A stretch of 58,214 nucleotides of DNA, from the NCBI GenBank assembly GCA_039588075.1, contig JBDHAL010000011.1, positions 1 through 58,214 on the forward strand, written 5' to 3'. Source of the DNA: Gemmatimonadota bacterium (GTDB taxonomy: Bacteria > Gemmatimonadota > Gemmatimonadetes > Palauibacterales > KS3-K002). Of the stretch, positions 27,568 to 55,723 are shown piece after piece (positions within the stretch are counted from its first letter, which is position 1; the number at the start of each line of letters is the position of its first letter). The notes below the pieces were generated by a model that did not search any database, was not told where the DNA came from, and saw only the letters and a list, made by a program, of their open reading frames with translations. The position numbers and the translations under genes were made by a program.

Positions 27568-27577
27568 GGGGTGGGGG

Positions 27578-27606: not shown

Positions 27607-27643
27607 GCGTTTTGCGGCGGCAGCGTCCTGCAGCGTCAGGGCA

Positions 27644-28486: not shown

Positions 28487-28504
28487 CGTCGCCCCTCCGT
28501 TTCC

Positions 28505-36835: not shown

Positions 36836-38130
36836 TGGTGGAAACGAGTCATAGCGAAGCAGCCGACGTGAGAGAGCGCGAGATCCTGGGCCGCGTTCCC
36901 GGCCGAATCTCCGGTGGGGTCGTCACGACGCTGGGAACGCTATCGGCGCTCGGGATCGTCGGCTTCATCGCGGGTCTCGCCGCGGACCCGCAGCGGGTCT
37001 GGCAGGCCTACCTGGTCAACTTCCTCTTCTTCTCCGGGCTCGCTGCGGCGGGCGTGCTGTTCGGCGCCGCCATGCAGCTGGCCAAGGGGCACTGGGGCAA
37101 GTCGATGCACAGGATCGGCCAAGGGTTCGGCGCGTTCTTGCCGGCATCGTACCTGTTCTTCTTGCTCCTCTACCTGGGGAGGGCCAGGATCTTCCCCTGG
37201 ATCGGCAACCCGGTGAACTCCGAGGGTCACCCGCTCCCAACGGTTTGGTACAACGTGGGCGGTCTCTTTGCCAGGGGCGCGATCTTTCTGGGCGTGCTCT
37301 ACGCGCTTTGCCTCGCGTTCATGTATTACTCGTTGCGCCCCGACATGCCCGCCGTCGCCGGCCGCCTCAGCGGCTGGCGCCGCAGCCTGGTGGATTGGAT
37401 TGGGCGCGATTTCGGGACCGTGGATACGGAGGCGGCCCGTTCCCGGCGCGTTTTGGCCCGACTCTCGCCGATCCTCGCCCTGAGCTACACCGTCATCTTG
37501 AGCGGCATGGCCGTCGACCTGATCATGTCGCTCGAGCCGGGCTGGCTATCGGCGCTGTATCCCGCCTACTTCTTCATCGGGGCCTGGCTCTCGGCGCTGG
37601 CCGGAATGGCCGTGATGGCGGCGCTGTTGCGCAAGCGCGCCGGCCTCGACTTCTTCGCCTCCAACCAGTGGCACGACCTGGGCAAGCTGGTCTTCGCGTT
37701 TTGCATCTTTTGGGCCTACCTCTGGTTCTCCCAGTACTTGCCCATCTGGTACGGCAACCTGGGACGCGAGACGCTCTTCATCGAGGCCCGCATGGATCCG
37801 CCCTGGCTGGGAACGTCCATCGCCCTCTTCGCCTTCGTCTTCGTCTTTCCGTTCCTGCTACTGTTGTGGCAGAAGGTCAAGATGGCCCCGTCTTACCTGG
37901 CGGCGGTGTCCGGCCTGGTGCTGCTGGGACTCTGGCTGGAGCGCTTTAACGCGGTCGTTCCGTCGATCTGGACCGGCGCCGGCGTACCGCTGGGATGGAT
38001 CGAGATCCTCGTGACTCTCGGGTTCCTCGGCGCTTTCGGCTTCTGCTACGCTCTCTACGCCTCGACCTTCCCGATGGTCCCGCTGCGTGACAGCATTATC
38101 GTTGGGTCGGCGCGGAAGGGACCGTACTAG
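36835..38130 (+). CDS. actF: Alternative Complex III subunit ActF (NrfD-like membrane subunit)
   Basis: 431-aa polytopic protein paralogous in layout to ActC. It is the last gene of the operon and overlaps the actE stop by 1 nt. Confidence 0.8.
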   Translation: MVETSHSEAADVREREILGRVPGRISGGVVTTLGTLSALGIVGFIAGLAADPQRVWQAYLVNFLFFSGLAAAGVLFGAAMQLAKGHWGKSMHRIGQGFGAFLPASYLFFLLLYLGRARIFPWIGNPVNSEGHPLPTVWYNVGGLFARGAIFLGVLYALCLAFMYYSLRPDMPAVAGRLSGWRRSLVDWIGRDFGTVDTEAARSRRVLARLSPILALSYTVILSGMAVDLIMSLEPGWLSALYPAYFFIGAWLSALAGMAVMAALLRKRAGLDFFASNQWHDLGKLVFAFCIFWAYLWFSQYLPIWYGNLGRETLFIEARMDPPWLGTSIALFAFVFVFPFLLLLWQKVKMAPSYLAAVSGLVLLGLWLERFNAVVPSIWTGAGVPLGWIEILVTLGFLGAFGFCYALYASTFPMVPLRDSIIVGSARKGPY

Positions 38131-38131
38131 T

Positions 38132-38166
38132 CGGTAACCGGTAACCGGTAATCGGTGACCGGTAAC
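38132..38166. repeat. family-B heptamer array
   Basis: CGGTAACCGGTAACCGGTAATCGGTGACCGGTAAC, beginning 2 nt after the actF stop. Confidence 0.7.
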
Positions 38167-38197
38167 ACAAGTAATTCAACCATAATCCTAGGTCGAC

Positions 38198-38255
38198 CGT
38201 CGAGCGAAGAGTCCAACTCGACGATCGAGTGACGGCTGACCGCTGTCCGATGTCG
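38198..38255. repeat. family-A element, solo right half
   Basis: CGTCGAGCGAAGAGTCCAACTCGACGATCGAGTGACGGCTGACCGCTGTCCGATGTCG. There is no left arm upstream. The position where a left arm would be is occupied by the heptamer array. Confidence 0.7.
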
Positions 38256-38278
38256 CGCCGAACGTCGCCCCACCTGAT

Positions 38279-42534: not shown

Positions 42535-43167
42535 ATGAACGGGACTGGAGGGTTGATGATGAAGGCCATTATTCGCATGGCGTGCGGCATCCTGGTGTTG
42601 GCAATCGCTCCCGCAGCCTCCTTCGCGCAGGACGGGACGACGCCGTTCCTCATGATCCCCGAGACGCTGGCGCGCGGCCAGTCGGAGATCGGCGGCTACG
42701 TGTCCATCGAAGAGAACATCGACCTGTTCGGGATCTATAGGCGCGGCCTGTCCCCAGGCTTCGATGTCGGCCTGCGGCTCGGCTTCACCGACGCGGCGGG
42801 CGGCGGCGTCAACTTCGGCGGCGACGCGAGGTACATGATCTCCCATGGTTCTCAGGACCTGCCGCTGCAGTTCGCTCTGGTCGGTGACGCCCAGTTTTCC
42901 ATCCTGGACGGCGTGAACCTGTTCGCCGCGCCGGCCGGCGTCTCGATGGGCGCGATGCTGGAGCCCGAGGACCACCCGCTCTGGCTGTACGGCACTCCCT
43001 ACGTGATGTTCACCTGGGTGGATGTCGATGGTGTTGGATCGGATACCGATCTGGACATCGGCATCGAGCTGGGCGCCCAGCTGCTGCTCGGTGGGAAGCT
43101 CTGGCTGGCGACGGCGCTGACGATTCAGAATGATGTGGCGCTTGCGCTGGGGCTTTCATACCGCTGA
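42535..43167 (+). CDS. putative outer-membrane beta-barrel protein (210 aa)
   Basis: Signal peptide (MKAIIRMACGILVLAIAPAASFAQ). Alternating hydrophobic beta-strand pattern, Gly/Asp-rich loops, and a C-terminal strand ALALGLSYR. The start may be 42556 or 42559. Confidence 0.55.
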   Translation: MNGTGGLMMKAIIRMACGILVLAIAPAASFAQDGTTPFLMIPETLARGQSEIGGYVSIEENIDLFGIYRRGLSPGFDVGLRLGFTDAAGGGVNFGGDARYMISHGSQDLPLQFALVGDAQFSILDGVNLFAAPAGVSMGAMLEPEDHPLWLYGTPYVMFTWVDVDGVGSDTDLDIGIELGAQLLLGGKLWLATALTIQNDVALALGLSYR

Positions 43168-43204
43168 GGGTCGGACGCTGAACATCGGACTTTGAATCGC
43201 TGAA

Positions 43205-43399
43205 GTCGACAGCGGACAGCGGTCAGCCGTCGCTCGACGGCGGGCGATAGAGGCGATTATCGACGGCCGATGTTCGATCTACAGCGATCCGGCAACGGGA
43301 TTTCCGTGAGGAGAATCGAGAGTCCCAAATCGACGGTCGTACGTCGAGCGAAGAGTCCAACTCGATAATCGAGCGACGGCTGACCGCTGTCCGCTGTCG
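43205..43399. repeat. family-A element, copy 4
   Basis: Arms GTCGACAGCGGACAGCGGTCAGCCGTCGCTCGA and TCGAGCGACGGCTGACCGCTGTCCGCTGTCGC. An inner right repeat is present. It lies between convergent stops at 43167 and 43414. Confidence 0.8.
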
Positions 43400-43413
43400 C
43401 TTATAATATCAAA

Positions 43414-45351
43414 CTAAAATGCTTCTCTCATCGCAGTACGGATCACGTTGCCGACGTTCGGCGTGCCGGGCGGCAACAGCTCGGGGTTGCGGAAATCGGT
43501 GTCGAAGCCCCAATCGCGCTGCGGCGGATAGTAGTACGTGCCGTTCCAGGTGCCGGTCGTCTTCTGACTGGTGAACGGGCTGACCAGGGCACCGAGATAG
43601 TGGAAGATGATCCTGGTGCTGCCGCTCTTCCATCGCTCGAGGAAGCGCGGAAAGTTCTCGATGCCGCCGCCGTAGAAGTCGGCGTAGCCGCCGGCGCATG
43701 GGGGCACCTCGTGATCGCAGGGCGTCGGCCAGTGCCCGGCCAGAACCGCCCCGTTCACCGTCGTCTCCGACGCGGTCTCCATGTTCCAGGTCGGTACCCA
43801 GTCTTCGTAGCCGGAACATGGGCTGCCGGCCAGGACCATTCCGTCGCAGTCGTTGACGTCACTGTTCTTGGGCCGGTTCTCGTTATCCTTCCACCCCTCC
43901 GAGAGAATGGTCAGACCGTCTGAGGCCAGCGCCGCGGGCTGCTTCGGCGAGTCGTTATAGTCGCCCTCCACGTAGAGCGGCCAATCGGTCGCCACCGTCA
44001 TGGGATTGGGAAGCGTCGAGCCGCTCTTCAATCGCAGGGCGGGGTCGACCGTGGCATCCAGAGTCTCATCCTTGACGTCTTGCGGATAGGTGCTGACTCC
44101 GCCCGGGACCACGAACTCGACATAGATGACCGCGGTGGCCCGGCTCTCTTCCCCGTCGATCCAGTCGTCGAGCTGCTGGATGTCTATGGTCAGGACATCC
44201 TTCATCTCTTCTTCCCGACCATCGTAGAACGCCGCCCACTCCCATCTCATGATGTCGCAAAGCGCCGGCTTGTTGGGGACGGTGCTGCCGTCTCGCTCGA
44301 TCGTGATGTCCGGCCACCACTTGTTGCCGCCGAAATTGTCATCGGGGTCGTCTTCACCATCGTCGCAGACCATGCCCTTGCTTTTTAGGTTGACCAGGTC
44401 GACGGTCACGTAGGTGTCCGCGTTCCAGGCGAACTTCACCGACTTCTCGGCCGCGCCGTCGTCCAGGTCGCGGGGCCGGATGACCTCGTACGGCGGGACC
44501 CCTTCCGGCAGCGGGAGCCTTAGCGAGTCCACCTCGAAAGCATCGGTCTGCAGGCGGCAATCGAAATCGTCGCAGCTCCGCGTCTTGAACGCCTCGAAGT
44601 CGGGGATCGAGCGGCTGTCGAACTCGAGCCTGACTTCGTTGCCTTCGGCGTCGTTGATGAACACGCCCGTCTGGATGTCGTGATTGTCCTTGCGGTCGTT
44701 GAACACCTTGTTGGGCGTGGTGATCATCTCCCGGTACCAGGCGTTGGGCTCGCTGTCGTCATCGCCGCCGCCCGAGCTCAGGTAGATGTTGCTGTTCGAG
44801 TGAACCCGGCCCACGAACTCGAGCGGCGGCCCGTTGGTCGCTTCCAGGTCATCATCGAAGAACACGCCGAACTGGAAGATGGGGATCGCCTGGGCCTTGG
44901 CGTCGAGGATCACGCCGCCAATGCTCCCGTTGGGATCCTCCGCCAGCGAAACGATCTCCACGTCCTGGGTTAGCGCGTACAACCCGCTGTACGGGCCGTC
45001 AGTGATCGTTTCCACGATCGGAGTGCCCTTCTTCATCACGGAGAAGCTGTCGTAGTTGAAGCCCTCCATCGTCGGCGCCTGCACGGCGGCCAGCTCGGCG
45101 TCTTCCAGCAGACCGTCCTGCAAAGCGAGCTTGATCTGGGCCAGCGCGACCTCGCCGCCGGCTTCCGCCGCATAGAAAGCCCGGCCTTCGTGGTATTCGA
45201 GGGCCGATGTCCGCACCGAGGCCATTACTGCTGTGACCATCGCGGCCACGACGGTACCGACCACCGCGAGAACGATGATGGTCGTGATCAGAGCCAGCCC
45301 GGAGCGGTCGCCCGGCCGCAGGGTCGATTTGCTAGACTTCAATACCGACAT
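43414..45351 (-). CDS. large PilX/GspK-like pilus tip-associated protein, cassette A (645 aa)
   Basis: The N-terminus ...GLALITTIIVLAVVGTVVAAMV...FYAAEAGGEVAL follows the PilX_N pattern. It is a paralogue of 47887-49812 along its whole length. Confidence 0.7.
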   Translation of the reverse strand: MSVLKSSKSTLRPGDRSGLALITTIIVLAVVGTVVAAMVTAVMASVRTSALEYHEGRAFYAAEAGGEVALAQIKLALQDGLLEDAELAAVQAPTMEGFNYDSFSVMKKGTPIVETITDGPYSGLYALTQDVEIVSLAEDPNGSIGGVILDAKAQAIPIFQFGVFFDDDLEATNGPPLEFVGRVHSNSNIYLSSGGGDDDSEPNAWYREMITTPNKVFNDRKDNHDIQTGVFINDAEGNEVRLEFDSRSIPDFEAFKTRSCDDFDCRLQTDAFEVDSLRLPLPEGVPPYEVIRPRDLDDGAAEKSVKFAWNADTYVTVDLVNLKSKGMVCDDGEDDPDDNFGGNKWWPDITIERDGSTVPNKPALCDIMRWEWAAFYDGREEEMKDVLTIDIQQLDDWIDGEESRATAVIYVEFVVPGGVSTYPQDVKDETLDATVDPALRLKSGSTLPNPMTVATDWPLYVEGDYNDSPKQPAALASDGLTILSEGWKDNENRPKNSDVNDCDGMVLAGSPCSGYEDWVPTWNMETASETTVNGAVLAGHWPTPCDHEVPPCAGGYADFYGGGIENFPRFLERWKSGSTRIIFHYLGALVSPFTSQKTTGTWNGTYYYPPQRDWGFDTDFRNPELLPPGTPNVGNVIRTAMREAF

Positions 45352-45402
45352 GTTTACTCTGCCTCAATTCCCGAGAAACGGCGGGCACTTTTGTGCTTCA
45401 AC

Positions 45403-46380
45403 CTAAAGTCGGTCCTTCTCGTAACGCAGATTCCTCGGCGCGATCGTCCACTCGAAGGTCCGGCGCAGCAATTCACCACCGTTCACTTTCGGATGGGCGC
45501 GGTCCGCCTTCACCCTGACGCGTATCTTCACGGCAACGACGTCGTCGAAGTCGTTGCTGTCGTCCGTATCGAGGGCGCTGGGTTGCTGCAATTCATCTCC
45601 GTCATCGAAAACGAGGGTCACCTCGAATTCCTCGACGCCGTAGGCAAGGACCTGACCGGCCGGCGAGCCGTCCAGGTTCAGGCGAACGGCACGTATCAAC
45701 TGCTCGTTCTCGTCGAGGTAGTAGACTATGGGCAACAGCTCTTGCACGTACGTTCCGAAGCGGTCGAGGCTCAAGAAGTCCATGCCGGCAGGCTGGCGGA
45801 GCAGCGTGTCGGCGGTCGTGAACAGCAACTCTACGCTCGTGTCGGTCGTCACGTTGAGGCTCTGGATGAGGGCGAGCCGCCGCGCGCCGAGGACCTGGAG
45901 GCGCGTGAGATCACCGACTTCAAGATCAAGGGGAGCGATGGCGTCCTTGGTGACCTCGATACACTGAAGCCCGCACACGCTGCTGGGCGGAAGCGGGTTC
46001 TCTGTGCCGTCCGGCGGAACGATAACGTGGGGCGGAGCCGGCGTCGGCACGTAGGGTACGAAGAGAACGATCAGCGTATCGCCGTAATCTCCCTGCCAGG
46101 CGTCGGCGGTGCCGAACGTCGTGGTGGTCTCGATACCGATACCCGCCCGCTGAAGGTCACGGCGCAGCGACACCCCGATGTAGCGGCCGTTGCGCGCTAC
46201 CGTATCGCGAATGTCGTGGGTGCTCAAGGTTTGAAATTCGGTGATCAGGTACTTGATTGCAGCGGTCATCACAATCGTGCCCAGCAGCAAGGCGACGATC
46301 AATTCCACGAACGTGAAACCGGAACGCGCTCCCGCTCTGATATCCTTGCCCGCAACAATCACCTGTGACCGCAATGTCAA
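45403..46380 (-). CDS. PilW/GspJ-like minor pilin, cassette A
   Basis: ARSGFTFVELIVALLLGTIVMTAAIKYL is a prepilin methylation motif with Glu+5. 325 aa. Paralogue of 49890-50858. Confidence 0.8.
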   Translation of the reverse strand: MTLRSQVIVAGKDIRAGARSGFTFVELIVALLLGTIVMTAAIKYLITEFQTLSTHDIRDTVARNGRYIGVSLRRDLQRAGIGIETTTTFGTADAWQGDYGDTLIVLFVPYVPTPAPPHVIVPPDGTENPLPPSSVCGLQCIEVTKDAIAPLDLEVGDLTRLQVLGARRLALIQSLNVTTDTSVELLFTTADTLLRQPAGMDFLSLDRFGTYVQELLPIVYYLDENEQLIRAVRLNLDGSPAGQVLAYGVEEFEVTLVFDDGDELQQPSALDTDDSNDFDDVVAVKIRVRVKADRAHPKVNGGELLRRTFEWTIAPRNLRYEKDRL

Positions 46381-46799
46381 CTCCCCACGTATACTATCGT
46401 TCTCACAACTACCGCTCTCTGCCTGCCCAGGCCGCCGGGATAGAGGACCGTCACCGCGAGCTGCACCGCGTCGGCCACGCTAGGTTCCGGCTCGACCGTC
46501 ACTTCACGAACGAACTTGCCGTTGTTGTCTTCCAGACCCCGTTCGTTCACCTGGACCGGTGCTTCACTATCGAGCGAACTCCGCTCCCGCGTCTTTAGCT
46601 GCTCCATGTAGGCCATGGCGATCGATGATGCTGTCGAGCGCGTACGGGCATCGGTTTCCACCGAGGTCATGAAGAGAGAAGAGCTGGACATCACGACGAC
46701 CCCCGCCGATAGCAGCACGATGGCCACCAGCACGGATACCATCCCGTATCCGTCTTCCGACGCCAGGGGGGTCCGCCACGCTCGCCTCACTTCTCCCAA
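46377..46799 (-). CDS. PilV/GspI-like minor pilin, cassette A (non-canonical, Ser at +5)
   Basis: ...EDGYGMVSVLVAIVLLSAGVVVMSSS. 140 aa. It has a 4-nt overlap with the downstream pilW-like gene and a 13-nt overlap with the upstream gene. Confidence 0.6.
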   Translation of the reverse strand: MGEVRRAWRTPLASEDGYGMVSVLVAIVLLSAGVVVMSSSSLFMTSVETDARTRSTASSIAMAYMEQLKTRERSSLDSEAPVQVNERGLEDNNGKFVREVTVEPEPSVADAVQLAVTVLYPGGLGRQRAVVVRTIVYVGS

Positions 46800-47428
46800 C
46801 TCCCGTTCCGGTATCGCCAGGCGCGGAACGCTCCCGCACCGCTTATTGTCACCGCCGCCACCGCCGTCGGTTCGTCCTCGTGCGCCAGGAAAACCACGCC
46901 TCCGACTCCAGCCGGCGTCACCATCCCACCCGCATCGAACTCGACCTGGCCACCCTCAAGGGTGATCGCAGCGGTCACCATGCTACCCAGCGGACCCGTC
47001 ACCACGTCCCCCGCTCCGAACACCACATCGTTCTTCAGCTCGACGCCCGGGACACCGCCCTCCGAGCCCCGCGCCACCAGGCGACTCCCGCGCGCCTCCT
47101 CACTCGTTTCTGATATCGTCCCCAGCCTCTCGCCCGTCATATCCATGTACGCCGTGTAAAAGCCCTCCGACTCGAGGAAGACCACCCGCACCCTCCGCTT
47201 CGACGCGATCGCCCGCATCCGCACCTGCTCCAGGTCTCGTGCCAGCGACCGCGCCGCCAGGTCCACCTGCAGTCGCGGGCTCTTCGTTATCGTCCGCGGC
47301 AGCGCCACCGCCACTATCACGCCCAGCATCAGCATCACGACGACCAACTCGATCACCGTGTAGCCGCTTCGCTCGCTCGCCGTCTGGGTTCTCGTTCGTT
47401 CCATCTCACAAAACGATAAGTCGGTCAT
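46787..47428 (-). CDS. FimT/GspH-like minor pilin, cassette A
   Basis: SERSGYTVIELVVVMLMLGVIVAVALPR carries the methylation motif. The GspH-like body includes LARDLEQVRMRAIASKRRVRVVF. The start is possibly the Met at 47404. Confidence 0.75.
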   Translation of the reverse strand: MTDLSFCEMERTRTQTASERSGYTVIELVVVMLMLGVIVAVALPRTITKSPRLQVDLAARSLARDLEQVRMRAIASKRRVRVVFLESEGFYTAYMDMTGERLGTISETSEEARGSRLVARGSEGGVPGVELKNDVVFGAGDVVTGPLGSMVTAAITLEGGQVEFDAGGMVTPAGVGGVVFLAHEDEPTAVAAVTISGAGAFRAWRYRNGSWEK

Positions 47429-47632
47429 TCTGACCGACCCGGAGGTACAGCTGCCCGCCCGGTAGGGTGCCGGCCGACTGACTCCGGAAGAGTGAAAAGC
47501 GCTTTATGTAGGCGGGAACTGCGCTTCAGGACGAAGGATCGGGCCGGTCCGCCAGTGGATCCGGCCAAGGTCCGTGGCTATGAAAGGCAAGAGCCGGGCC
47601 TAAGTGGTAGGGTTGCTGGACGACGTTCGGCG

Positions 47633-47854
47633 CGACATCGGACAGCGGTCAGCCGTCGCTCCACGGTCGAGTTGGACTCTTCGCTCGACGTACGACGGTC
47701 GACTTGGGACTCTCTACTCTCCTCACGGCCATCGCCGTTTGCCCGATCGGCCTCATCCTCCCCTCAGCCCCGTACATCGAACATCGGCCGTCGAGCGTCG
47801 AGCGAAGAGTCCAACTCGAACCGTCGAGCGACGGCTGACCGCTGTCCGATGTCG
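47633..47854. repeat. family-A element, copy 5 (between the two pilin cassettes)
   Basis: CGACATCGGACAGCGGTCAGCCGTCGCTC... to ...TCGAGCGACGGCTGACCGCTGTCCGATGTCG, with both inner repeats. Confidence 0.85.
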
Positions 47855-47886
47855 TAAAAAACAACATCGCTGCGCACCATGCCGGG

Positions 47887-49812
47887 CTAAAGAGCTTCTC
47901 GCATAGCGGTCCGGATGACGTTGCCGACACTAGGCGTGCCGGGTGGCAGCAGCTCGGGGTTTCTGAAGTCGGTATCGAACTGCCAATCGCGCTGCGGCGG
48001 ATCGTAATAGGTGCCGTTCCAGGTGCCGGTAGTCTGTTGGCTGGTGAAGGGGCTGATGAGGGCGCCGGTGTAGTGGAGAATGTGCCTGGCGCCACCTCCG
48101 CCGCTGACGATCCAGCTCTCGAGGAAGCGCGGGAAGTTCTCGATGCCGCCGCCGTAGAAGTTGCTGTAACCGCCACCGCAGGGAGGGATCTCATGATCGC
48201 ACGGAGTAGGCCAGTGGCCGGCGAGGATGCCGGCGTTCACCGTCGTCTCCTGGGCCTCCTTGTTGTTCCAGGCGTTGGTGAAGGCGACGTACTCGTCGCA
48301 GCTTCCATCGTCCTCGTTGGCATCGTCACACCGCTCGAACACGCTCGTGGTGCCCGGGCGGTTTTGAGGATCCTGCCACCGGTTCGACAGTATGTCGATC
48401 CCATCGCCGGCGAGCGCGGCCGGTTTCTTGTCAATGTTGTTGTAATCGCCCCAGGCGTACATCGGCCACTCGGTGACGATGGTCATTCGGTTTGGCAACA
48501 GCGCGCCAGCGGCGACGCGCACGGCGGGATCGACCTGGCCATCGAGTATCTGGGCGCGCGTCTCGGGCGTGAACCCTCCGATGCCCGCCGGCGCGGTGAT
48601 CTCGACATAGATGATCTCCATCGCGCGATCCACGTCGCCGGCAACCCAAGAGTCGATTTCGTCGATATTGATCTGCACGATGTCTTTCAGCTCATCCTCG
48701 CGCCCATCGTAGAAGGCAGCCCACTGCCATTGGAACATCCTGCAGAGTTGGGTCTCGTTGGGGACCACGGCGCCACCGGAACGAACCGCCCTGACAGTGG
48801 GGATCAGCACGTTCCCGGCCACATCTTTGGAAATGCTGCAGGCGCCGCTCCAGTTCTTCATGCTGGTGAAGTCCACGGTCACGTACATGTCGGCGTTCCA
48901 CGCGAATTTCACCGACTTCTCCGCCTCGCCGTCATCGACGTCACGCGGCCGGATGAGCTCGGAAGCGGGCACGCCGTCCGGCAACGGCAACTCCAGAGAA
49001 TCCACGTTGAACGCATCGGTCTCCAAGCGACAATCGAACTTGGCGCAGCTCTCCGTCTTGAATGCTTCCGCATCGTCTATCGTGCGACTGTCGAAGTCGA
49101 GCTTGACCTCGTTCCCATCGGCGTCGTTGATGTAGACTCCATCCTGGATGTCGTGGTTGTCCTTCCGGTCGTGGAAGACCTTGTTGGGCGTCGTTATCGG
49201 CTCGCGGTACCACGCGTTGGGCAGGTTATCGCCGGGCCCCGCGCCCGAGCTCAGGTAGATATTGCCGTTCGAGTGGACGCGGCCCTTGAACTCGAGAGGC
49301 GGACCGTTGGTCGCCTCGAGGTCCTCGTTGTAGAACACGCCGAACTGGAAGATGGGGATGGCCTGGGCCTTGGCTCTGAGCACAACGCCAGCGACCGTAC
49401 CGTTCTCGTCCGCGGCCAGCGAGTAGATCTCGACGTTCTGCGTCAGAGCATAAAGACCTTCGTAAGGACCGTCGGTGATGTTCTCGACAACCGCGGTGCC
49501 CTGCCTGGCGACCGTGAAGCTGTCGAAGCTGAACCCATCGATATCGGGGGGCGTGATCGCGGCGAGCTCCTCGTCACCCAGAAACGCGTCCTGCAGCGCC
49601 AGCTTGAGCTGCGAGAGCGCGGATTCGCCGCCCGCCTCGGCGGCGTAAAAGACACGGGCTTCCTGGTAGTCGAGGCTCGACGAGCGAAGTGAAGTCATAG
49701 CGGCTCGCACGGCGCCGGCGATGACCACGCCCATGATGGCCAACACGATGAGCGTTGCAACCAGCGCCAGGCCGCGCCTGTCGCTCCGTCCTGTGGCTGA
49801 GATATCAAACAT
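47887..49812 (-). CDS. large PilX/GspK-like pilus tip-associated protein, cassette B (641 aa from preferred start)
   Basis: The preferred start is ATG at 49812 with a strong SD (GGAAGGAGGAG). MFDISATGRSDRRGLALVATLIVLAIMGVVIAGAV...FYAAEAGGESAL. The track ORF extends to 49938 and would overlap the upstream gene. Confidence 0.7.
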   Translation of the reverse strand: MFDISATGRSDRRGLALVATLIVLAIMGVVIAGAVRAAMTSLRSSSLDYQEARVFYAAEAGGESALSQLKLALQDAFLGDEELAAITPPDIDGFSFDSFTVARQGTAVVENITDGPYEGLYALTQNVEIYSLAADENGTVAGVVLRAKAQAIPIFQFGVFYNEDLEATNGPPLEFKGRVHSNGNIYLSSGAGPGDNLPNAWYREPITTPNKVFHDRKDNHDIQDGVYINDADGNEVKLDFDSRTIDDAEAFKTESCAKFDCRLETDAFNVDSLELPLPDGVPASELIRPRDVDDGEAEKSVKFAWNADMYVTVDFTSMKNWSGACSISKDVAGNVLIPTVRAVRSGGAVVPNETQLCRMFQWQWAAFYDGREDELKDIVQINIDEIDSWVAGDVDRAMEIIYVEITAPAGIGGFTPETRAQILDGQVDPAVRVAAGALLPNRMTIVTEWPMYAWGDYNNIDKKPAALAGDGIDILSNRWQDPQNRPGTTSVFERCDDANEDDGSCDEYVAFTNAWNNKEAQETTVNAGILAGHWPTPCDHEIPPCGGGYSNFYGGGIENFPRFLESWIVSGGGGARHILHYTGALISPFTSQQTTGTWNGTYYDPPQRDWQFDTDFRNPELLPPGTPSVGNVIRTAMREAL

Positions 49813-49889
49813 CTGTCCAGCTCCTCCTTCCCGCGGGCAACATGGGGCCCGATGTCGCAGCGGGCTCTCTAGTCCGCACCAGAGTCGAT

Positions 49890-50858
49890 TCAGATTCTGA
49901 ACTTCTCGTAACGCAGGTTCCGAGGTGAAATCGTCCACTCGTACTGCCTGCGAAGTATTTCACCTTCGTTGACCCGTGGATCCGCGGCGTCGGCCTTGAC
50001 TGTGACTGCAATCTTGACGGCCACGATGTCGTCGAAGTCGTTGGAATCATCCAGATCGTTCGAGTTGGCCGTTTCCAGTTCGTCGCCATCGGCGAACACC
50101 AGCTTGACATCGAACCGCTCCACGCCATAGGCGAGAATGTGGCCCTCCGGCGAGCCGTCGAGCTTCAACCTCCCCGCCCGCATCAGCTGCTCCTGATCGT
50201 CCAGGTAGTAGGCGACCAGCTCCAGCTTCTGTATGATCGTACCGAAGCGGTCGAGGAGCATGCCGTCCTCGAGGCCGGCGGGTTGCCTCACTATGGTATC
50301 CGCCGCCGTGAAGCTGATTTGCACCGACGTGTCGGTAACCTCGTCGAGCTCGGTGATGAGGATCAGGTGCCGGGTGCCCGGAATCTGCAGCCGCGCCAGA
50401 TCGCCCACCCGGAGATCGAGCGGCTCGACATCGTCCTTCAGCACTTCGACGCAGCGGGCTCCACAGGTGCCGCCGGGCGGGAGGGGGTTATCGATGCCGA
50501 ACGGAGGTACGATGACGTGGGCCGGTGCGACGTCCGGCTGGTAGGGCACGTGCAGGATGACCACGGTGTCGCCGAACGTTCCGGGCCAAACGGCTACCGT
50601 GCCGAACGTCGTCGTACTGGTGATCTCGATGCCGGCCCGCTGCACATCGTGGCGAAGCGATGAGCCGATGTACCGCGCGTTGCGGCTCAAGCTCTGACGG
50701 ATCTCGCTTCCGGCCAGCGTGCGCATCTCCCGGATGACGTAAGCGATCGCCGCGCTCAGGACGAGGACGCCCATGGCGAGGGCGATGATCAGCTCCACGA
50801 AGGTGAAGCCGCGAAGCCTGCGCCGCCGAGCCGGCGCTTCGTGTCTCATAGCTCGCAT
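49890..50858 (-). CDS. PilW/GspJ-like minor pilin, cassette B
   Basis: RLRGFTFVELIIALAMGVLVLSAAIAYV. 322 aa. Roughly 60 percent identical by eye to the cassette A copy. Confidence 0.8.
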   Translation of the reverse strand: MRAMRHEAPARRRRLRGFTFVELIIALAMGVLVLSAAIAYVIREMRTLAGSEIRQSLSRNARYIGSSLRHDVQRAGIEITSTTTFGTVAVWPGTFGDTVVILHVPYQPDVAPAHVIVPPFGIDNPLPPGGTCGARCVEVLKDDVEPLDLRVGDLARLQIPGTRHLILITELDEVTDTSVQISFTAADTIVRQPAGLEDGMLLDRFGTIIQKLELVAYYLDDQEQLMRAGRLKLDGSPEGHILAYGVERFDVKLVFADGDELETANSNDLDDSNDFDDIVAVKIAVTVKADAADPRVNEGEILRRQYEWTISPRNLRYEKFRI

Positions 50859-51302
50859 CTACTCATTCCCCACGTAAATGACCGTCACCAACTCCAGGGT
50901 CCTGCGGCGACCGAAGCCCGACGGATACTGAACCTCGACCGTCGCCCTGACCGCATCGGGCGTGTCCGGCTCTTCGACGACCGTCAGGCTGCGCAGGAAA
51001 CGGCCGCCGGTGGCCTCGGTACCCGTCTCGTTCACGGCAACCTCGGCTTCGGTCGCGATGGAAGTCGGGAGCCGGGTCTTGACTTGCTCCATGTAAGCGA
51101 GGGCGATGGCGCTGGCCCGGGTACGTTCGGCGGCATCGGTCTGAAGCGAGACCATGAAGGCGCTGGAGCTGGACAGCGCGACCACGCCTATCGCGATCAA
51201 CACTATGGCCACGAGCACCGAGACGATGCCGAAGCCGGCCTGCGATCGTTCAATCGCCGCGGTACGCATCAGTTGATCCACGTTCCGCCGCGGTAGCGCC
51301 AA
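50859..51302 (-). CDS. PilV/GspI-like minor pilin, cassette B (non-canonical, Ser at +5)
   Basis: ...SQAGFGIVSVLVAIVLIAIGVVALSSS. An alternative start is the ATG at 51269, which overlaps the upstream stop by 1 nt (TGATG). Confidence 0.6.
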   Translation of the reverse strand: MALPRRNVDQLMRTAAIERSQAGFGIVSVLVAIVLIAIGVVALSSSSAFMVSLQTDAAERTRASAIALAYMEQVKTRLPTSIATEAEVAVNETGTEATGGRFLRSLTVVEEPDTPDAVRATVEVQYPSGFGRRRTLELVTVIYVGNE

Positions 51303-51916
51303 AGACGCAACGCGCTGGCTCCCGAGATCGTTACGGCGGCCACCGCGGACGGGTCATCTTGATGAACCAGATATATAACGCCGCCGTACCCGGCAGGGTC
51401 CACCAGTCCACGAGCGCCGAACTCCACCCAGGTACTCTCCCCGTTGTAGCCCAGGGCTATCGACTCGGCGGCCGAAATCCCCAGCGGTCCGCTGGACGCG
51501 CCGCCGGCGCCGAACTCGATCTTTCTGGGAAGCTCGACACCGGGGATGCCGGCGAGGGACCCGCGCACGACCAACCCTCCCTCGCGCACTTCTTCGACGG
51601 TCTCGGACACGGTGCCGAGTCGCTGACCCGACACATCCATGAAGGCGGTATAGAAATTCCCGGCATCGTAGAAGCGGACCCGGACCTGGCGCTTGGCGGC
51701 GAGCGCACGCGTGCGAGCCTGCTCGAGGTCACGGACGAGCGAACGGGCGGCGCGATCGACCTGTTGATTGGGAGTCGAACGGATGGCACGCGGCAAGGCG
51801 ATCGTGGCGACGACCACCAGGATGATCATGACCACGACGATTTCGATAAGCGTGAAGCCCCACCTGTTTCGCAACATAGACCTCATCCGCCCCTTGGCCG
51901 GGTAGGCGTTTGTCAA
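51269..51916 (-). CDS. FimT/GspH-like minor pilin, cassette B
   Basis: NRWGFTLIEIVVVMIILVVVATIALPR. The segment LVRDLEQARTRALAAKRQVRVRF parallels cassette A. The track start is TTG, and an internal Met is possible. Confidence 0.75.
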   Translation of the reverse strand: MTNAYPAKGRMRSMLRNRWGFTLIEIVVVMIILVVVATIALPRAIRSTPNQQVDRAARSLVRDLEQARTRALAAKRQVRVRFYDAGNFYTAFMDVSGQRLGTVSETVEEVREGGLVVRGSLAGIPGVELPRKIEFGAGGASSGPLGISAAESIALGYNGESTWVEFGARGLVDPAGYGGVIYLVHQDDPSAVAAVTISGASALRLWRYRGGTWIN

Positions 51917-52347
51917 TCCAACGAAGCCGCCCTCGCGGCTCTCCGGTCAACCTGACCGCTCGGGGGGTGAGCACCCAGCCGGCAACAATTGTAGCCTTGC
52001 GCCCGGCATTTCAAGCGCAGAAGAAGGAAGCGCCGCGGGACACAGCTGGGGGAGACCCAGACAAGATGGGCGACCCGGACGGGGCGGTCAATGCTGAGTC
52101 CGGGTGGAGTATTGGCGGATGCAAACGAGCTTGCAGAAAGCCAGACCGCCGCGCCTCGAGTCACTCGCGCGCGATCGCCACAACGTGTTTCAATGCAACG
52201 CTTTGGGTTTACGGCCCAGCGCGGCACCGCCTTTGCAAATACATCCGTTTAACGAAGCGCGCCTCGGGCGCGTCTCATGATTGGGCGCGAGAGCCCCATT
52301 CAGCAGCACCTCCCACCCCAAGTGTCCCGCCAGGAGTATGATCAACC

Positions 52348-53211
52348 GTGCCGTTCATAGAGTATCAGAGCCGATTGTACCCGCTCAAGGAGGGTGAGAA
52401 CCGCCTCGGGGCCGACCCGAACGCCAACGTGCGGATCCCCGACCTGCAGGCCGACATCGAACTGGCGATCAGCGTCGAGATGCTCGGTTCGTTCGCCTGG
52501 GCCAAGGGCGATAGCCGCGAGATCGCGATCAACGGGAGCCCGCTCAACAAGGAGCCGATCCCGCTATTTCACGGCGATCGCCTCTCGTTGAACGGCTCGA
52601 CGCTGGTCTTCATCGATGACGACGGAGAACCCACCGTTCATATGCAACGACCGGCGCCGGCCGCCGTGGCCAGCACCGTGGCGGAATCACCGCAGGGAAC
52701 AGCGGCCGTGGAGCCGCACTTGCTGTCGCGGATGACACCACCGACGCAAAAGCGAAGAGTCGTTGCCGTGCTGCGCCGGGCCGATAACAATCAAGCGTAC
52801 ATCGTGGGCCGGACCGGGTTCCGGATCGGACGAGAGAAGCGCTGTGACTTGATCATTCCGGACAGGTCGGTCTCGCGGCTGCACGCCGAGATCGCGTTCA
52901 GCGGCGGCCAATTCTTGTTGCGCTGCCTCGGCCGCACTTCGACCAAGGTCAACGGGCGCGCGCTGGATGAACCGTACAAACTTCGTGTCGGGGACGTGAT
53001 TCAGATAGGGAGCTACGAATTCACGTTTCTACGCAGACCGGCCACCGCGCAGGAGATCGTTCAGGCAAGCGAGGTCACGCCGATCCGCAGCGCCGTCGCG
53101 GAGGCGCCGACCGTCGCGATCGGTGGCGCTACCCGCGGCCGGTTGGTCTTCTGGTTCCTGTTTACGGTGCTTGCCGGACTCGTCGGCGTCATACTCATGG
53201 GCCGCGCCTAG
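52348..53211 (+). CDS. FHA-domain protein with degenerate N-terminal FHA-like domain, canonical second FHA domain and C-terminal TM anchor
   Basis: The second domain is canonical: YIVGRTGFRIGREKRCDLIIPDRSVSRLHAEIAFSGGQFLLRCLGRTSTKVNGRAL..LRVGDVIQIGSYEFTF. The first domain (LKEGENRLGADPNANVRIPD...INGSPL...LFHGDRLSLNGSTLVF) lacks the SR-H signature. The C-terminal helix is LVFWFLFTVLAGLVGVILMG. Confidence 0.8.
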   Translation: MPFIEYQSRLYPLKEGENRLGADPNANVRIPDLQADIELAISVEMLGSFAWAKGDSREIAINGSPLNKEPIPLFHGDRLSLNGSTLVFIDDDGEPTVHMQRPAPAAVASTVAESPQGTAAVEPHLLSRMTPPTQKRRVVAVLRRADNNQAYIVGRTGFRIGREKRCDLIIPDRSVSRLHAEIAFSGGQFLLRCLGRTSTKVNGRALDEPYKLRVGDVIQIGSYEFTFLRRPATAQEIVQASEVTPIRSAVAEAPTVAIGGATRGRLVFWFLFTVLAGLVGVILMGRA

Positions 53212-53218: not shown

Positions 53219-53430
53219 CTGATTCGACATCGGACAGCGGTCAGCCGTCGCTCGATTGTCGAGTTGGACTCTTCGCTCGACGCCCGACCGTCGATGCTCG
53301 ACGTACAGCGCCGAAGGGATGGGGAGGTCCTATCCAAGTGGGGAGAGTCGCAAGTCGAGCGACGCACGTCGAGCGAAGAGTCCAACTCGGACGTCGAGCG
53401 ACGGCTGACCGCTGTCCGATGTCGAATCAG
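53219..53430. repeat. family-A element, copy 6 (best-preserved, 37-bp perfect terminal inverted repeat)
   Basis: CTGATTCGACATCGGACAGCGGTCAGCCGTCGCTCGA to TCGAGCGACGGCTGACCGCTGTCCGATGTCGAATCAG. It fills the gap between convergent stops at 53211 and 53427 almost exactly. Confidence 0.9.
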
Positions 53431-55321: not shown

Positions 55322-55386
55322 TTGCCTAAGCTAGGGCTTTCGACGCTGAACGTCGACGTTCGACAGCTAACGCCGAATGTTGATGG

Positions 55387-55635
55387 GACATCGGACAGCG
55401 GTCAGCCGTCGCTCGATTGTCGAGTTGGACTCTTCGCTCGGCGGTCGACGTACGACGTTCGAGTTTCGACGCTCGTGATCGGAACCGCCAGATCGATCAG
55501 CCGATCCTGCAAATCATGGGTGTCGCGCCACCTCGTCGATTCGCCCAATCTCCCCTCCTCGCTGTACGTCGAAGATCGGCCGTCGAGCGACGAGCGAAGA
55601 GTCCAACTCGGCCGTCGAGCGACGGCTGACCGCTG
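55387..55635. repeat. family-A element, copy 7 (right terminus degenerate)
   Basis: GACATCGGACAGCGGTCAGCCGTCGCTCGATTGTCGAGTTGGACTCTTCGCTCG... to ...CGAGCGAAGAGTCCAACTCGGCCGTCGAGCGACGGCTGACCGCTG. It lies in the divergent region between the antiporter and the ABC genes. Confidence 0.8.
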
Positions 55636-55723
55636 ATGGCTGTTCCTTCAACAATCACCATTTACCATTCAACATTCGATGTTCCCCTTGCGGTGTTTTA
55701 TCCGCTGGAATAGCATCGCAGCC

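What the first reader, a model, noticed from the sequence alone, without database searches (positions are those of the whole stretch)
43205..51916. Tandem duplication of a 4-gene minor-pilin cassette, each copy followed by a family-A repeat
Two co-oriented minus-strand modules share the same order and tight or overlapping junctions. Each encodes a FimT/GspH-like, a PilV/GspI-like, a PilW/GspJ-like and a large PilX/GspK-like protein. Cassette B spans 51916-47887 and cassette A spans 47428-43414. Each module is followed directly downstream by a family-A element (47633-47854 and 43205-43399), giving a repeat unit of about 4.4 kb. The protein pairs are clearly paralogous but diverged. PilW-like is roughly 60 percent identical by eye, and the PilX-like C-termini are much higher. 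The DNA at the 3' ends is roughly 80 percent similar by eye. This is therefore an old duplication, not an assembly repeat. There is no major pilin, PilY1, secretin, ATPase or prepilin peptidase in the window. Two alternative priming complexes could equip one pilus or pseudopilus machine with different tips.
Basis: partly seen in the sequence, partly recalled or inferred. Interest (0 to 1): 0.65.

Follow-up and report, generated by a model that had tools for sequence, protein, structure and literature searches.

The report
Two ancient tandem minor-pilin cassettes
A marine-sediment Gemmatimonadota bacterium carries two old, diverged tandem copies of a four-gene set that most likely builds the tip of a type IV pilus-like filament, a layout already known from other bacteria, so it is real but fairly ordinary.

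Summary
Two co-oriented minus-strand four-gene cassettes (B 51916-47887, A 47428-43414) encode paralogous prepilin-type proteins that are 54-64% identical.

- **H:** GspH/FimT-like.
- **V:** PilV/GspI-like.
- **W:** has a GspJ/PilW fold in a Foldseek search.
- **X:** a 640-aa PilX/GspK-type cap that lacks Glu5 and is partly homologous to cyanobacterial HpsA.

The duplication is ancient. Synonymous sites are saturated and dN/dS is 0.15-0.39. Upstream and downstream copies from four Gemmatimonadota genomes form separate clades. Candidatus Kutchimonas denitrificans has the same tandem pair in the same neighbourhood. An assembly artefact is excluded.

The 'family-A repeat' is not part of the duplicated unit. 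It is a dispersed 175-260-nt palindromic element with 6.5 copies in the window. It is absent from all 87 related loci, and a related strain lacks one copy.

No pilus machine genes lie in the window, but a third, unrelated pilin-like gene pair sits at 12789-14955.

The most likely function is two alternative tip/priming complexes for a type IV filament machine encoded elsewhere, with X acting as cap and adhesin in place of PilY1. This parallels Myxococcus and cyanobacteria, so I class it as a new member of a known kind, of modest interest.

The parts
51269..51916 (-). B1, the H subunit: a GspH/FimT(U)-like prepilin of 215 aa as an ORF. The true start may be an internal Met. Cleavage motif RWG|FTLIE.
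   Evidence: Pfam N_methyl 27.5 bits; GspH 20.7 bits against a cut-off of 21. TIGR01708 gspH E 4.8e-9. In the family, 51/70 members hit GspH and Glu5 is present in 69/70.
50859..51302 (-). B2, the V subunit: a PilV/GspI-like prepilin of 147 aa. Motif AG|FGIVS, with Ser instead of Glu at +5.
   Evidence: TIGR02523 PilV E 1.9e-8. TIGR01707 GspI E 4e-4 over 1-100 of 101 profile positions. In the family, N_methyl hits 49/57 members and +5 is Ser in 45/57.
49890..50858 (-). B3, the W subunit: a PilW/GspJ-like prepilin of 322 aa. Motif RG|FTFVE.
   Evidence: Pfam N_methyl, and weak PilW (16.8 bits). It is 62% identical to A3, whose model has a GspJ/XcpW fold.
47887..49812 (-). B4, the X subunit: a PilX/GspK-type cap pilin with a large globular module, 641 aa from the ATG at 49812. 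The ORF extends upstream to a GTG at 49938. Motif RRG|LALVAT, no Glu5.
   Evidence: PilX_N 26.4 bits against a cut-off of 25.5. Partial HpsA match E 4.7e-11. 64% identical to A4.
47633..47854 (.). Family-A palindromic element, copy e4, 222 nt with inverted termini of about 60 nt. It lies between the B4 stop codon and the A1 start codon.
   Evidence: Predicted hairpin of -155 kcal/mol. One of 6.5 copies in the window and absent from the 87 related loci.
47429..47632 (-). Non-coding stretch upstream of A1 and downstream of the hairpin element. A promoter for cassette A would be expected here, which is inference only.
   Evidence: Sequence. No sigma-70 consensus was found.
46787..47428 (-). A1, the H subunit: a GspH/FimT(U)-like prepilin of 213 aa. 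Motif RSG|YTVIE.
   Evidence: Pfam GspH 22.0 bits against a cut-off of 21, covering 1-108 of 108 profile positions. TIGR01708 E 2e-6.
46377..46799 (-). A2, the V subunit: a PilV/GspI-like prepilin of 140 aa. Motif DG|YGMVS, no Glu5. It overlaps A1 by 13 nt and A3 by 4 nt.
   Evidence: TIGR02523 PilV E 1.9e-6. 54% identical to B2.
45403..46380 (-). A3, the W subunit: a PilW/GspJ-like prepilin of 325 aa. Motif SG|FTFVE. Contains the invariant pair C136/C140.
   Evidence: AF2 model pLDDT 87.7. Best Foldseek PDB matches are TTHA1219, XcpW (9a1f_S, 3nje, 5vtm_W) and EpsJ (2ret_B), with probability 0.75-1.0. Invariant columns are listed.
43414..45351 (-). A4, the X subunit: a PilX/GspK-type cap pilin of 645 aa. 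Motif RSG|LALIT, no Glu5. The layout is an alpha1 helix at 19-79, a pilin-like sheet at 104-157, a large globular module and an extremely conserved C-terminal strand at 632-644.
   Evidence: PilX_N 21.4 bits. HpsA partial match E 1.7e-11. AF2 pLDDT 88.8, pTM 0.85. No PDB fold match with E<0.001. Invariant residues are listed.
43207..43399 (.). Family-A palindromic element, copy e3, 193 nt. It lies between the convergent stop codons of A4 and of the ORF at 42535-43167.
   Evidence: A contig of run X2, from a strain about 92% identical, skips 43154-43414 and carries 21 other bases instead.
51917..52347 (.). Divergent intergenic region of 431 nt between B1 and the FHA-domain gene (52348-53211, + strand). 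This is the presumed promoter region of cassette B, by inference only.
   Evidence: ORF map. FHA assignment from Pfam. The FHA gene is syntenic in Ca. Kutchimonas.

Best explanation
The region holds two paralogous operons. Each encodes a complete set of four 'core minor pilins' of a type IV filament: H (GspH/FimT-like adapter), V (PilV/GspI-like), W (PilW/GspJ-like) and X (PilX/GspK-like cap).

**Proposed mechanism (inferred).**
1. A prepilin peptidase encoded elsewhere cleaves all four proteins after the conserved Gly.
2. V, W and X assemble in the inner membrane into a tip or priming complex.
3. X lacks Glu5 and sits at the apex.
4. H links the complex to the major pilin, which is polymerised underneath by a machine encoded elsewhere in the genome.

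**Role of X.** X carries a globular module of about 470 residues between its pilin-like sheet and a nearly invariant C-terminal beta-strand, and it is partly homologous to cyanobacterial HpsA/PilX-EPS. No PilY1 gene accompanies the cassette in any of about 80 genomes. X therefore most likely acts as both plug and adhesin, supplying the licensing C-terminal strand in cis.

**Origin.** The two sets arose by tandem duplication of the whole operon in an ancestor of this marine Gemmatimonadota lineage (order Palauibacterales and relatives). Both have been kept under purifying selection. The most likely reason is that they prime filaments with different tips; X residues 306-550 are the most diverged part.

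**Repeats.** The palindromic family-A elements behind each cassette are later, independent insertions of a dispersed element. The copy between the cassettes may incidentally insulate the two transcription units.

**Shown versus inferred.** Shown: the gene families, the W fold, the lack of Glu5, the age and conservation of the duplication, and the independence of the repeat. Inferred: complex formation, the tip role of X, alternative use of the two sets, and the identity of the machine.
For: **Family assignment.**
- N_methyl, GspH, PilW and PilX_N hits. gspH, PilV, GspI, GspK and HpsA hits.
- Across relatives, 51/70 H proteins hit GspH, 63/63 W proteins hit N_methyl, and 65/65 X proteins hit HpsA partially.
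- The W model (pLDDT 87.7) matches TTHA1219, XcpW/GspJ and EpsJ best in the PDB.

**Signal motif.** Gly(-1) is nearly invariant in all four families. Glu5 is present in H (69/70) and W (63/63) and absent in X (0/63). This is the hallmark of GspK/PilX-type caps (PMC13533445).

**X architecture.** Long alpha1 helix, sheet, large module and a C-terminal strand at 632-644. P627, P628, T630, P631, V633 and G634 are invariant. This matches the in-cis C-terminal strand model for PilY1-less systems (PMC13533445).

**Age and retention.**
- pS 0.57-0.72 and dN/dS 0.15-0.39.
- NJ trees place the upstream (B-type) and downstream (A-type) copies of four genomes in separate clades. Bootstrap for concatenated HVW is 99 for the A clade and 68 for the B clade. 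In the X tree, window B4 pairs with the upstream Kutchimonas copy at 97, window A4 pairs with the downstream copy at 90, and the wider A-type clade has 99.
- The same tandem pair sits in the same neighbourhood in Ca. Kutchimonas denitrificans.

**X is the diversifying part.** One relative has six tandem X genes followed by a single H-V-W, and another has two X genes.

**Precedents.** M. xanthus has three minor-pilin/PilY1 clusters (PMC7541494). Cyanobacteria have two core sets that prime distinct filaments (bioRxiv 10.64898/2026.02.12.705559).
Against: - No pilus or secretion machine gene, major pilin or prepilin peptidase is in the window or next to the cassette in the six related loci inspected. 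The machine type is therefore unknown.
- Most HMM scores are below curated cut-offs. Examples are PilV at 28-35 bits against 52, PilW at 17-20 against 26, GspK at 20 against 130 and HpsA at 42 against 400.
- The X model has no PDB match with E<0.001, not even to GspK or ComZ.
- V also lacks Glu5 in 52/57 members, which does not fit the canonical GspI/PilV picture.
- No expression data exist; only DNA runs were found.
- No complex was modelled.
Confidence: 0.6

Rival explanations
1. The cassettes encode GspH-I-J-K tip complexes of a type II secretion pseudopilus, not of a surface pilus. The two sets would then serve protein secretion.
For: H matches Pfam GspH and TIGR gspH. B2 matches GspI over its full profile. 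W's fold matches XcpW and EpsJ. X weakly matches GspK. Some JGI records name relatives 'type II secretory pathway pseudopilin PulG'.
Against: - X is twice the size of GspK and shares its conserved N- and C-terminal frame with HpsA, which is classed as a PilX of motility pili (bioRxiv 10.64898/2026.02.12.705559).
- The top fold match of W is a Thermus type IV-like pilin.
- T2SS minor pseudopilin genes normally sit inside the gsp operon next to gspG and gspL/M, which is not seen in any locus here.
- X multiplies to six tandem copies in one relative, which suits an exposed adhesin better than an internal piston tip.
Confidence: 0.15
2. The two sets are not interchangeable alternatives at one machine. 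Instead they are dedicated to two different filaments or functions, for example DNA uptake versus motility or adhesion as in the cyanobacterial Com and EPS sets, or they are simply redundant.
For: Cyanobacteria use two core minor-pilin sets for two morphologically distinct filaments (bioRxiv 10.64898/2026.02.12.705559). Both copies here have been retained since before four genomes diverged. A strong hairpin element separates the transcription units.
Against: In cyanobacteria the two sets belong to deeply split PilV and PilX subfamilies. Here A and B are the same subfamily at 54-64% identity and both match HpsA, which is closer to the M. xanthus situation. There are no expression or phenotype data either way.
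Confidence: 0.2
3. The tandem repeat is an assembly artefact, a recent duplication, or a pair in which one copy is decaying.
For: None beyond the repeat structure itself. A few short metagenome contigs cross-match between the conserved 3' ends of A4 and B4, with only 32-39 nt on the shorter side.
Against: - The copies are only 59-68% identical in DNA and synonymous sites are saturated.
- All eight ORFs are intact and dN/dS is 0.15-0.39.
- Three other independently assembled genomes carry the same two paralogues in the same order.
- Exact-match contig pieces of both cassettes occur in other sequencing runs.
Confidence: 0.01
4. The family-A element is a functional part of the duplicated module, for example a cassette-specific terminator or regulatory RNA that was copied along with the genes.
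For: One element lies 14-32 nt downstream of the stop codon of each X gene. The hairpins are very stable, at -112 and -155 kcal/mol.
Against: - Five other copies (four complete, one half) lie next to unrelated genes in the window.
- No copy is found in any of the 87 related loci, including the syntenic tandem cassettes of Ca. Kutchimonas.
- A related strain lacks the copy behind A4.
- The internal parts of the two copies differ.
Confidence: 0.04

Closest known systems
Core minor pilin operon fimU-pilVWX(Y1E) of Pseudomonas aeruginosa, pilHIJK of Neisseria, and gspHIJK of type II secretion systems
   Same: - Four prepilin-type proteins in the order H, I/V, J/W, K/X.
- Translationally coupled genes.
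- The K/X subunit lacks Glu5.
- W has the GspJ/XcpW fold and H matches GspH.
- The operon lies away from the machine genes, as in P. aeruginosa.
   Different: - No PilY1 or PilC gene.
- X is about 640 aa rather than about 200 (PilX) or 330 (GspK), and its model has no PDB fold match.
- V also lacks Glu5.
- Sequence scores are mostly below family cut-offs.
Cyanobacterial core minor pilin sets (FimT-PilW-PilV-PilX, Com and EPS types) and HpsA/PilX-EPS (bioRxiv 10.64898/2026.02.12.705559; NCBIfam NF038301)
   Same: - More than one complete core set per genome.
- No PilY1.
- PilX carries a bulky domain inserted before the C-terminal strand.
- All 65 X-family members tested share conserved N- and C-terminal blocks with HpsA.
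   Different: - The HpsA score of 42 bits is far below the 400-bit cut-off, and X is less than half HpsA's length.
- The two sets here are close paralogues in tandem, not deeply split subfamilies.
- A beta-solenoid in X was not demonstrated here.
- The phylum is different.
Myxococcus xanthus minor pilin/PilY1 clusters 1-3 (PMC7541494)
   Same: Several paralogous clusters each encode four minor pilins. Individual clusters are able to prime the same T4aP machine. This is the closest functional precedent for alternative priming complexes.
   Different: The Myxococcus clusters each include a separate PilY1 and are dispersed in the genome. Here the tip protein is fused into X and the sets are adjacent.
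PilY1-less tip pilins with a large middle domain and an in-cis C-terminal strand: CpaL (Caulobacter Tad), the Thermus competence pilus tip pilin, and GspK (PMC13533445)
   Same: A pilin-like N-terminal domain, a middle module of hundreds of residues, and a conserved extreme C-terminal beta-strand. In X this strand is at 632-644 and is nearly invariant.
   Different: No sequence or fold match to these proteins was found.
Verru_Chthon cassette proteins A-D (TIGR02596-TIGR02600)
   Same: A multi-copy four-gene cassette with three small prepilin-type proteins and one very large one. B1 hits protein D at E 3.9e-10.
   Different: Scores are below cut-off (40 bits against 70). X does not match protein A (E 0.4). 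What I know about this cassette beyond the model names comes from memory of the TIGRFAMs descriptions and was not tested here.

Membership tests
Type IV pilin-like proteins (class III signal peptide, prepilin peptidase substrates) | Short basic leader ending in Gly(-1), followed by a hydrophobic alpha1-N helix of about 20 residues | tested here: met
   All eight proteins carry the motif. Gly(-1) is present in 68/70 H, 57/57 V, 63/63 W and 63/65 X relatives. Profile searches of the PDB hit only pilin N-terminal helices, with E down to 2.6e-11 for H. A long N-terminal helix appears in both models.
Type IV pilin-like proteins (class III signal peptide, prepilin peptidase substrates) | Glu at position +5, in all subunits except the apical cap | tested here: inconclusive
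   Met for H (69/70) and W (63/63). X lacks it, as expected for a cap (0/63). V unexpectedly lacks it too, with Ser in 45/57 and Glu in only 5/57.
GspH / FimT / FimU | Match to Pfam PF12019 (GspH) at or above the gathering score | tested here: met
   A1 scores 22.0 bits against a cut-off of 21 over the whole profile. B1 scores 20.7 bits, just below. 51 of 70 relatives match with best E 6.8e-8. There is a weak FimU match (4ipu) in the PDB profile search.
PilV / GspI | Match to TIGR02523 (PilV) or TIGR01707 (GspI) above cut-off; small size; second position in the operon | tested here: inconclusive
   PilV scores 28.4 and 34.9 bits against a cut-off of 52.2. GspI scores 20.8 bits against 44.35 but covers 1-100 of 101 positions in B2. 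Size (140-147 aa) and position fit. The globular fold was not modelled.
PilW / GspJ | GspJ-type two-sheet globular fold behind the pilin helix | tested here: met
   Pfam PilW scores only 19.6 and 16.8 bits against a cut-off of 26. However, the AF2 model of A3 (pLDDT 87.7) has TTHA1219, XcpW (9a1f_S, 3nje, 5vtm_W, 6utu, 5bw0) and EpsJ (2ret_B) as its best PDB matches, with E 3e-4 to 1.5e-2 and probability 0.75-1.0.
PilX / GspK (apical cap pilin) | Pilin-type N-terminus without Glu5; PilX_N match; last gene of the H-I-J-K set | tested here: met
   PilX_N scores 26.4 bits for B4 (cut-off 25.5) and 21.4 for A4. No Glu5 in 63 relatives. The gene sits in fourth position in this clade and first in Gemmatimonadales.
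PilX / GspK (apical cap pilin) | Globular domain resembling GspK or another solved cap pilin | tested here: not met
   GspK NF037980 scores 20 bits against 130, over the N-terminus only. Foldseek of the confident X model against the PDB gives no match with E<0.001. The PDB sequence profile search gives nothing beyond the helix.
HpsA (NF038301, equivalog) | Full-length match above 400 bits | tested here: not met
   Scores are 42.5 and 41.1 bits. Only two short blocks align: A4 154-192 to HpsA 285-323, and B4 551-642 to HpsA 1324-1398. All 65 relatives show the same partial match. X is therefore a distant relative, not a member.
T4aP core minor pilin/PilY1 priming module | PilY1/PilC gene in or next to the operon | tested here: not met
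   No PilY1-like ORF is in the window or beside the cassette in the six annotated related loci.
T4aP or T2SS system as a whole | Presence of the extension ATPase, platform protein, secretin, alignment proteins, major pilin and prepilin peptidase in the genome | not testable with these tools
   The window is the whole 58-kb contig and holds none of these.

The most novel reading that the evidence does not exclude
The X proteins may define a phylum-wide family of fused cap-plus-adhesin tip pilins in Gemmatimonadota. Their globular fold has no solved relative. They duplicate readily, giving two full cassettes here and up to six tandem X genes in front of one H-V-W set elsewhere, which would provide a repertoire of exchangeable filament tips. 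Because V also lacks Glu5, the tip complex may have a geometry with two Glu5-less subunits that differs from the canonical GspI-J-K arrangement.
Probability: 0.3. Interest if true: 0.55.

Novelty: new member of a known kind. Interest (0 to 1): 0.35.

Why it matters
- **First look at this machinery in the phylum.** Gemmatimonadota are abundant in soils and sediments but almost uncultured, and their surface machinery has hardly been described. This analysis shows that a four-gene tip-complex cassette with a large PilY1-substituting cap pilin is conserved across the phylum, with more than 540 loci found in the genome collection. Whole-cassette or X-only duplications are common.
- **Wider support for a recent idea.** It extends to a third phylum the notion that one filament machine can be primed by several minor-pilin sets.
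- **Material for follow-up.** It offers a set of natural paralogue pairs, with conserved frames and a variable middle of X, for studying tip specificity.
- **Limits.** It does not reveal a new kind of system.

Tried and rejected
- **PDB profile searches.** Sequence-profile searches with all four families found only the generic pilin helix.
- **Foldseek on X.** The search with the X model against the PDB found nothing significant, so the fold of the X module stays unassigned. I did not claim a beta-solenoid.
- **Structure prediction input.** I repeated it with database homologues.
- **Promoter and terminator scan.** Counts in and around the cassettes (43000-52500) were no higher than in shuffled sequence. 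The only sigma-70-like hits lie at the 3' end of A4.
- **Expression and read evidence.** No RNA runs exist for this sequence. The metagenome contigs are too short and too shallow to span the junction between the cassettes. They only confirm that pieces of both copies exist independently.
- **Gene conversion.** I considered this as the cause of the similar 3' ends of X. It is unlikely, because the same blocks are the invariant blocks of the whole family and synonymous differences there are still high, at pS 0.41-0.47.
- **Third pilin-like pair.** I checked whether the pair at 12789-14955 is a degenerate third cassette. It shares only the N-terminal helix with W and X.
- **Literature.** A search for pili in Gemmatimonadota, or in Ca. 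Kutchimonas and Palauibacterales, found nothing specific.

Full report

Yes. The ORF list for 41-54 kb shows two series of four minus-strand ORFs.
- Cassette B: 51916-51269, 51302-50859, 50858-49890 and 49938-47887.
- Cassette A: 47428-46787, 46799-46377, 46380-45403 and 45351-43414.

Genes within a cassette overlap or abut, by 13 and 4 nt in A. The exception is a gap of 51-77 nt before the large last gene. Local protein alignments give 59% (H), 54% (V), 62% (W) and 64% (X) identity over nearly the full lengths. Ungapped DNA repeats at the 3' ends of the X genes are 79-82% identical, with a start-to-start spacing of 4473-4482 nt.

One coordinate needs correcting. The first 42 codons of the B4 ORF have no counterpart in A4 or in 63 homologues, so B4 probably starts at the ATG at 49812.

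**2. What are the proteins?**

*Prepilin signature.* All eight proteins carry a prepilin-type N-terminus. Across relatives from about 80 genomes, Gly(-1) is nearly invariant in all four families.
- Glu5 is present in H (69/70) and W (63/63).
- Glu5 is absent from X (0/63), which has Ala or Thr there. Absence of Glu5 marks the apical GspK/PilK/PilX-type subunit (PMC13533445).
- V unexpectedly has Ser at +5 in 45/57 members and Glu in only 5.

*Family matches.*
- H matches Pfam GspH. A1 scores 22.0 bits against a cut-off of 21 and B1 scores 20.7. 51/70 relatives also match.
- V matches TIGR PilV at 28-35 bits, below the cut-off. B2 also matches GspI over the full profile.
- W has only weak Pfam PilW hits. 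An AlphaFold2 model of A3 built on 53 homologues (pLDDT 87.7, pTM 0.81) finds as its best PDB matches the Thermus type IV-like pilin TTHA1219, XcpW (GspJ) in several entries, and EpsJ. E-values are 3e-4 to 1.5e-2 with probability 0.75-1.0.
- X matches PilX_N. B4 scores 26.4 bits against a cut-off of 25.5. X also has weak N-terminal matches to GspK and tapirin, and a partial match to the cyanobacterial HpsA model at E about 1e-11. All 65 family members tested share the HpsA match.

*The X model.* The AF2 model of A4 is confident (pLDDT 88.8, pTM 0.85). It shows a 60-residue N-terminal helix, three long strands (104-157), a large mixed module and a long C-terminal strand (632-644). The C-terminal 20 residues are almost invariant in the family. 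Foldseek against the PDB gave no match with E<0.001, and a sequence profile search gave nothing.

The support is solid for H, W and the N-terminus of X. For V it rests on weak scores and gene position. The globular part of X has no solved relative.

**3. Whose genome is it, and how common is the cassette?**

*Taxon.* Homologues of X are almost all labelled Gemmatimonadota. The closest named genome is the MAG Candidatus Kutchimonas denitrificans, whose X is 69% identical. That taxon belongs to the order Palauibacterales (PMC10469786). The only sequencing runs that hold near-identical words are marine sediment metagenomes.

I called ORFs in the best 80 loci and classified them with iterated HMMs of H, V, W and X. 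Nearly every locus long enough holds all four genes.
- The order is H-V-W-X in the clade of the window.
- The order is X-H-V-W in most Gemmatimonadales.

*Duplications and expansions.*
- Full tandem duplicates (HVWX-HVWX) occur in the window, in Ca. Kutchimonas (L001/L002/L008), in L009 and in L011.
- L004 has X-X-H-V-W and L016 has X-X-H.
- L021 has six tandem X genes before one H-V-W. They are 45-69% identical, and the first is cut by the contig end.
- Several loci have extra H-V-W sets without X.

*Neighbourhood.* In six loci with pre-computed annotation, none of the neighbouring genes is a pilus or secretion machine component or a PilY1.

**4. Age of the duplication.**

Codon-aligned comparison of A and B gives proportions of synonymous differences of 0.57-0.72. 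That corresponds to dS of 1.07-2.37, which is saturated. dN/dS is 0.15-0.39.

Neighbour-joining trees support an old, whole-cassette event.
- In the concatenated H+V+W tree, the downstream copies of the window, Kutchimonas, L009 and L011 form one clade (bootstrap 99). The upstream copies form another (bootstrap 68), and window B pairs with Kutchimonas copy 1 at 99.
- In the X tree, window B4 pairs with the upstream Kutchimonas copy at 97 and window A4 with the downstream copy at 90. The A-type clade as a whole has 99.

The whole cassette therefore duplicated once, before these lineages split, and both copies have kept their order since. In Kutchimonas the pair sits in the same neighbourhood as in the window. 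On one side are a Na+/H+ exchanger, a small ORF and an FHA-domain gene. On the other are an ORF of about 200 aa with no Pfam match, metH and the alternative complex III operon.

Together with the low DNA identity of 59-68%, this excludes an assembly artefact. Exact-match contig pieces from other runs cover parts of both cassettes.

Within X, residues 126-305 and 551-645 are 75-78% identical between A and B, whereas residues 306-550 are 42-57% identical. The conserved blocks coincide with the family's invariant columns. Selection, rather than recent gene conversion, therefore explains the similar 3' ends.

**5. The family-A repeat.**

Each element is 175-260 nt with inverted termini of about 60 nt (CGACATCGGACAGCGGTCAGCCGTCGCTCGA...) and a variable core. 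Predicted hairpin energies are -112 to -155 kcal/mol. The 22-nt terminal motif occurs 13 times in the window against 0.01 expected. This defines six complete elements and one half element.

Most copies lie behind stop codons of unrelated genes. One lies between divergent starts (55386-55645).

Neither an exact-motif search nor a short-word BLAST finds any copy in the 87 related loci, including the syntenic tandem cassettes. A contig from a strain about 92% identical skips 43154-43414 and has 21 other bases instead, so the copy behind A4 is absent there.

The elements are therefore lineage-specific, probably mobile or at least polymorphic, intergenic palindromes. They landed behind both X genes independently and are not part of the duplicated unit. 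The copy between B4 and A1 could act as a transcription barrier, but that is inference only.

**6. Context claims.**

Pfam scans of 30 further large ORFs of the window found no ATPase, secretin, platform protein, prepilin peptidase or PilY1. A motif scan found no candidate major pilin.

There is one additional pilin-like pair. It consists of a 285-aa protein with a canonical G|FTIME motif (14098-14955) and a PilX_N-containing protein (12789-14153). These share only the N-terminal helix with the W and X families.

**7. Mechanism.**

The best-supported reading is that each cassette encodes a core minor-pilin initiation complex.

Established knowledge of T2SS and T4P tip complexes holds that GspI/J/K-type subunits assemble first, that the Glu5-less K subunit is apical, and that H joins the complex to the fibre. 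A C-terminal beta-strand licenses initiation. It is supplied by PilY1 in trans, or by the K-type subunit in cis when PilY1 is missing (PMC13533445).

X fits the in-cis type. It has a pilin-like N-domain, a large middle module and a nearly invariant C-terminal strand, and no PilY1 is present.

The partial homology to HpsA links X to the cyanobacterial PilX-EPS class, which has been proposed to be the plug and adhesin of motility pili (bioRxiv 10.64898/2026.02.12.705559).

Two complete, long-retained sets whose main divergence lies in the middle of X suggest two tip variants for one machine. This resembles the M. xanthus clusters (PMC7541494). The arrays of X genes in relatives point the same way.

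None of this was tested functionally here. The machine could be a T2SS (rival, 0.15). The two sets could also serve distinct filaments or be redundant (rival, 0.2).

**8. Novelty and verdict.**

The finding is a correct and careful observation of an ordinary kind of genetic arrangement in a poorly studied phylum. It is a new member of a known kind.

Three details deserve a specialist's glance:
- V lacks Glu5.
- The confident X model has no counterpart among solved structures.
- X genes tend to multiply.

Interest: 0.35.

Noticed in passing
window 3654-3829, 10957-11169, 38170-38270 (half copy), 43207-43399, 47633-47854, 53225-53424, 55386-55645: A dispersed palindromic element of 175-260 nt with inverted termini of about 60 nt and a variable core. 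Predicted hairpins are -112 to -155 kcal/mol. It occurs about once per 9 kb, mostly behind stop codons. It is absent from 87 related loci. One copy is missing in a strain about 92% identical (a contig skips 43154-43414). It looks like a MITE-like or REP-like lineage-specific repeat.
   Followed up: partly
window 12789-14955 (- strand): A third pilin-like gene pair. One protein is 285 aa with a canonical G|FTIME prepilin motif. The other is an ORF of about 454 aa, with the true start probably internal, that contains PilX_N. They lie downstream of a PKD-domain gene (15285-16376). They share only the N-terminal helix with the W and X families.
   Followed up: partly
alignment A3 (V family); window 46751 and 51236: The PilV/GspI-like subunit has Ser instead of Glu at position +5 in 45 of 57 family members and Glu in only 5. 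Two of the four cassette proteins (V and X) therefore lack the residue normally missing only from the apical subunit.
   Followed up: partly
L021 54-13581 (uncultured Gemmatimonadaceae MAG, contig CAZVSO010000055.1): Six tandem X-family genes, 45-69% identical to each other and with the first cut by the contig end, are followed by a single H-V-W set. L004 and L016 carry two X genes in tandem. L024, L039, L026, L063, L077 and L080 carry extra H-V-W sets without X.
   Followed up: partly
window 10337-10373, 27036-27726, 28497-28560, 38122-38169: A second repeat family is made of runs of GGTAACC/GGTGACC-like heptamers. It is clustered around the four-tRNA gene block (26939-27567) and occurs at two other intergenic sites.
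   Followed up: no
window 52348-53211 (+ strand): An FHA-domain protein (FHA plus a Yop-YscD_cpl-type domain) is transcribed divergently from cassette B. The same arrangement occurs in Ca. Kutchimonas (L001/L002), but not at the single cassette of CP070823.1 (L003). A regulatory link to the cassettes is possible but was not tested.
   Followed up: no
window 4748-7528 and 7886-10333 (+ strand): Two adjacent paralogous MacB_PCD/FtsX-type permease genes, with DNA repeats 70-76% identical at a spacing of about 2.8 kb. This is another old tandem duplication in the window.
   Followed up: no
window 23154-25376 (+) and 15285-16376 (-): A Big_2 plus RCC1-repeat protein has internal DNA repeats with a 150-nt period. 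A PKD-domain protein has internal repeats with a 195-nt period. Both are probably secreted repeat proteins.
   Followed up: no
alignments A4 and A5 (W family), residues C136 and C140 of A3; alignment A1 (X family), residues C545, D546 and C552 of A4: W has an invariant cysteine pair in a GTCGxxC motif. X has a conserved TPCDHE...C motif. These may be disulfides or metal sites in the periplasmic or extracellular domains.
   Followed up: no
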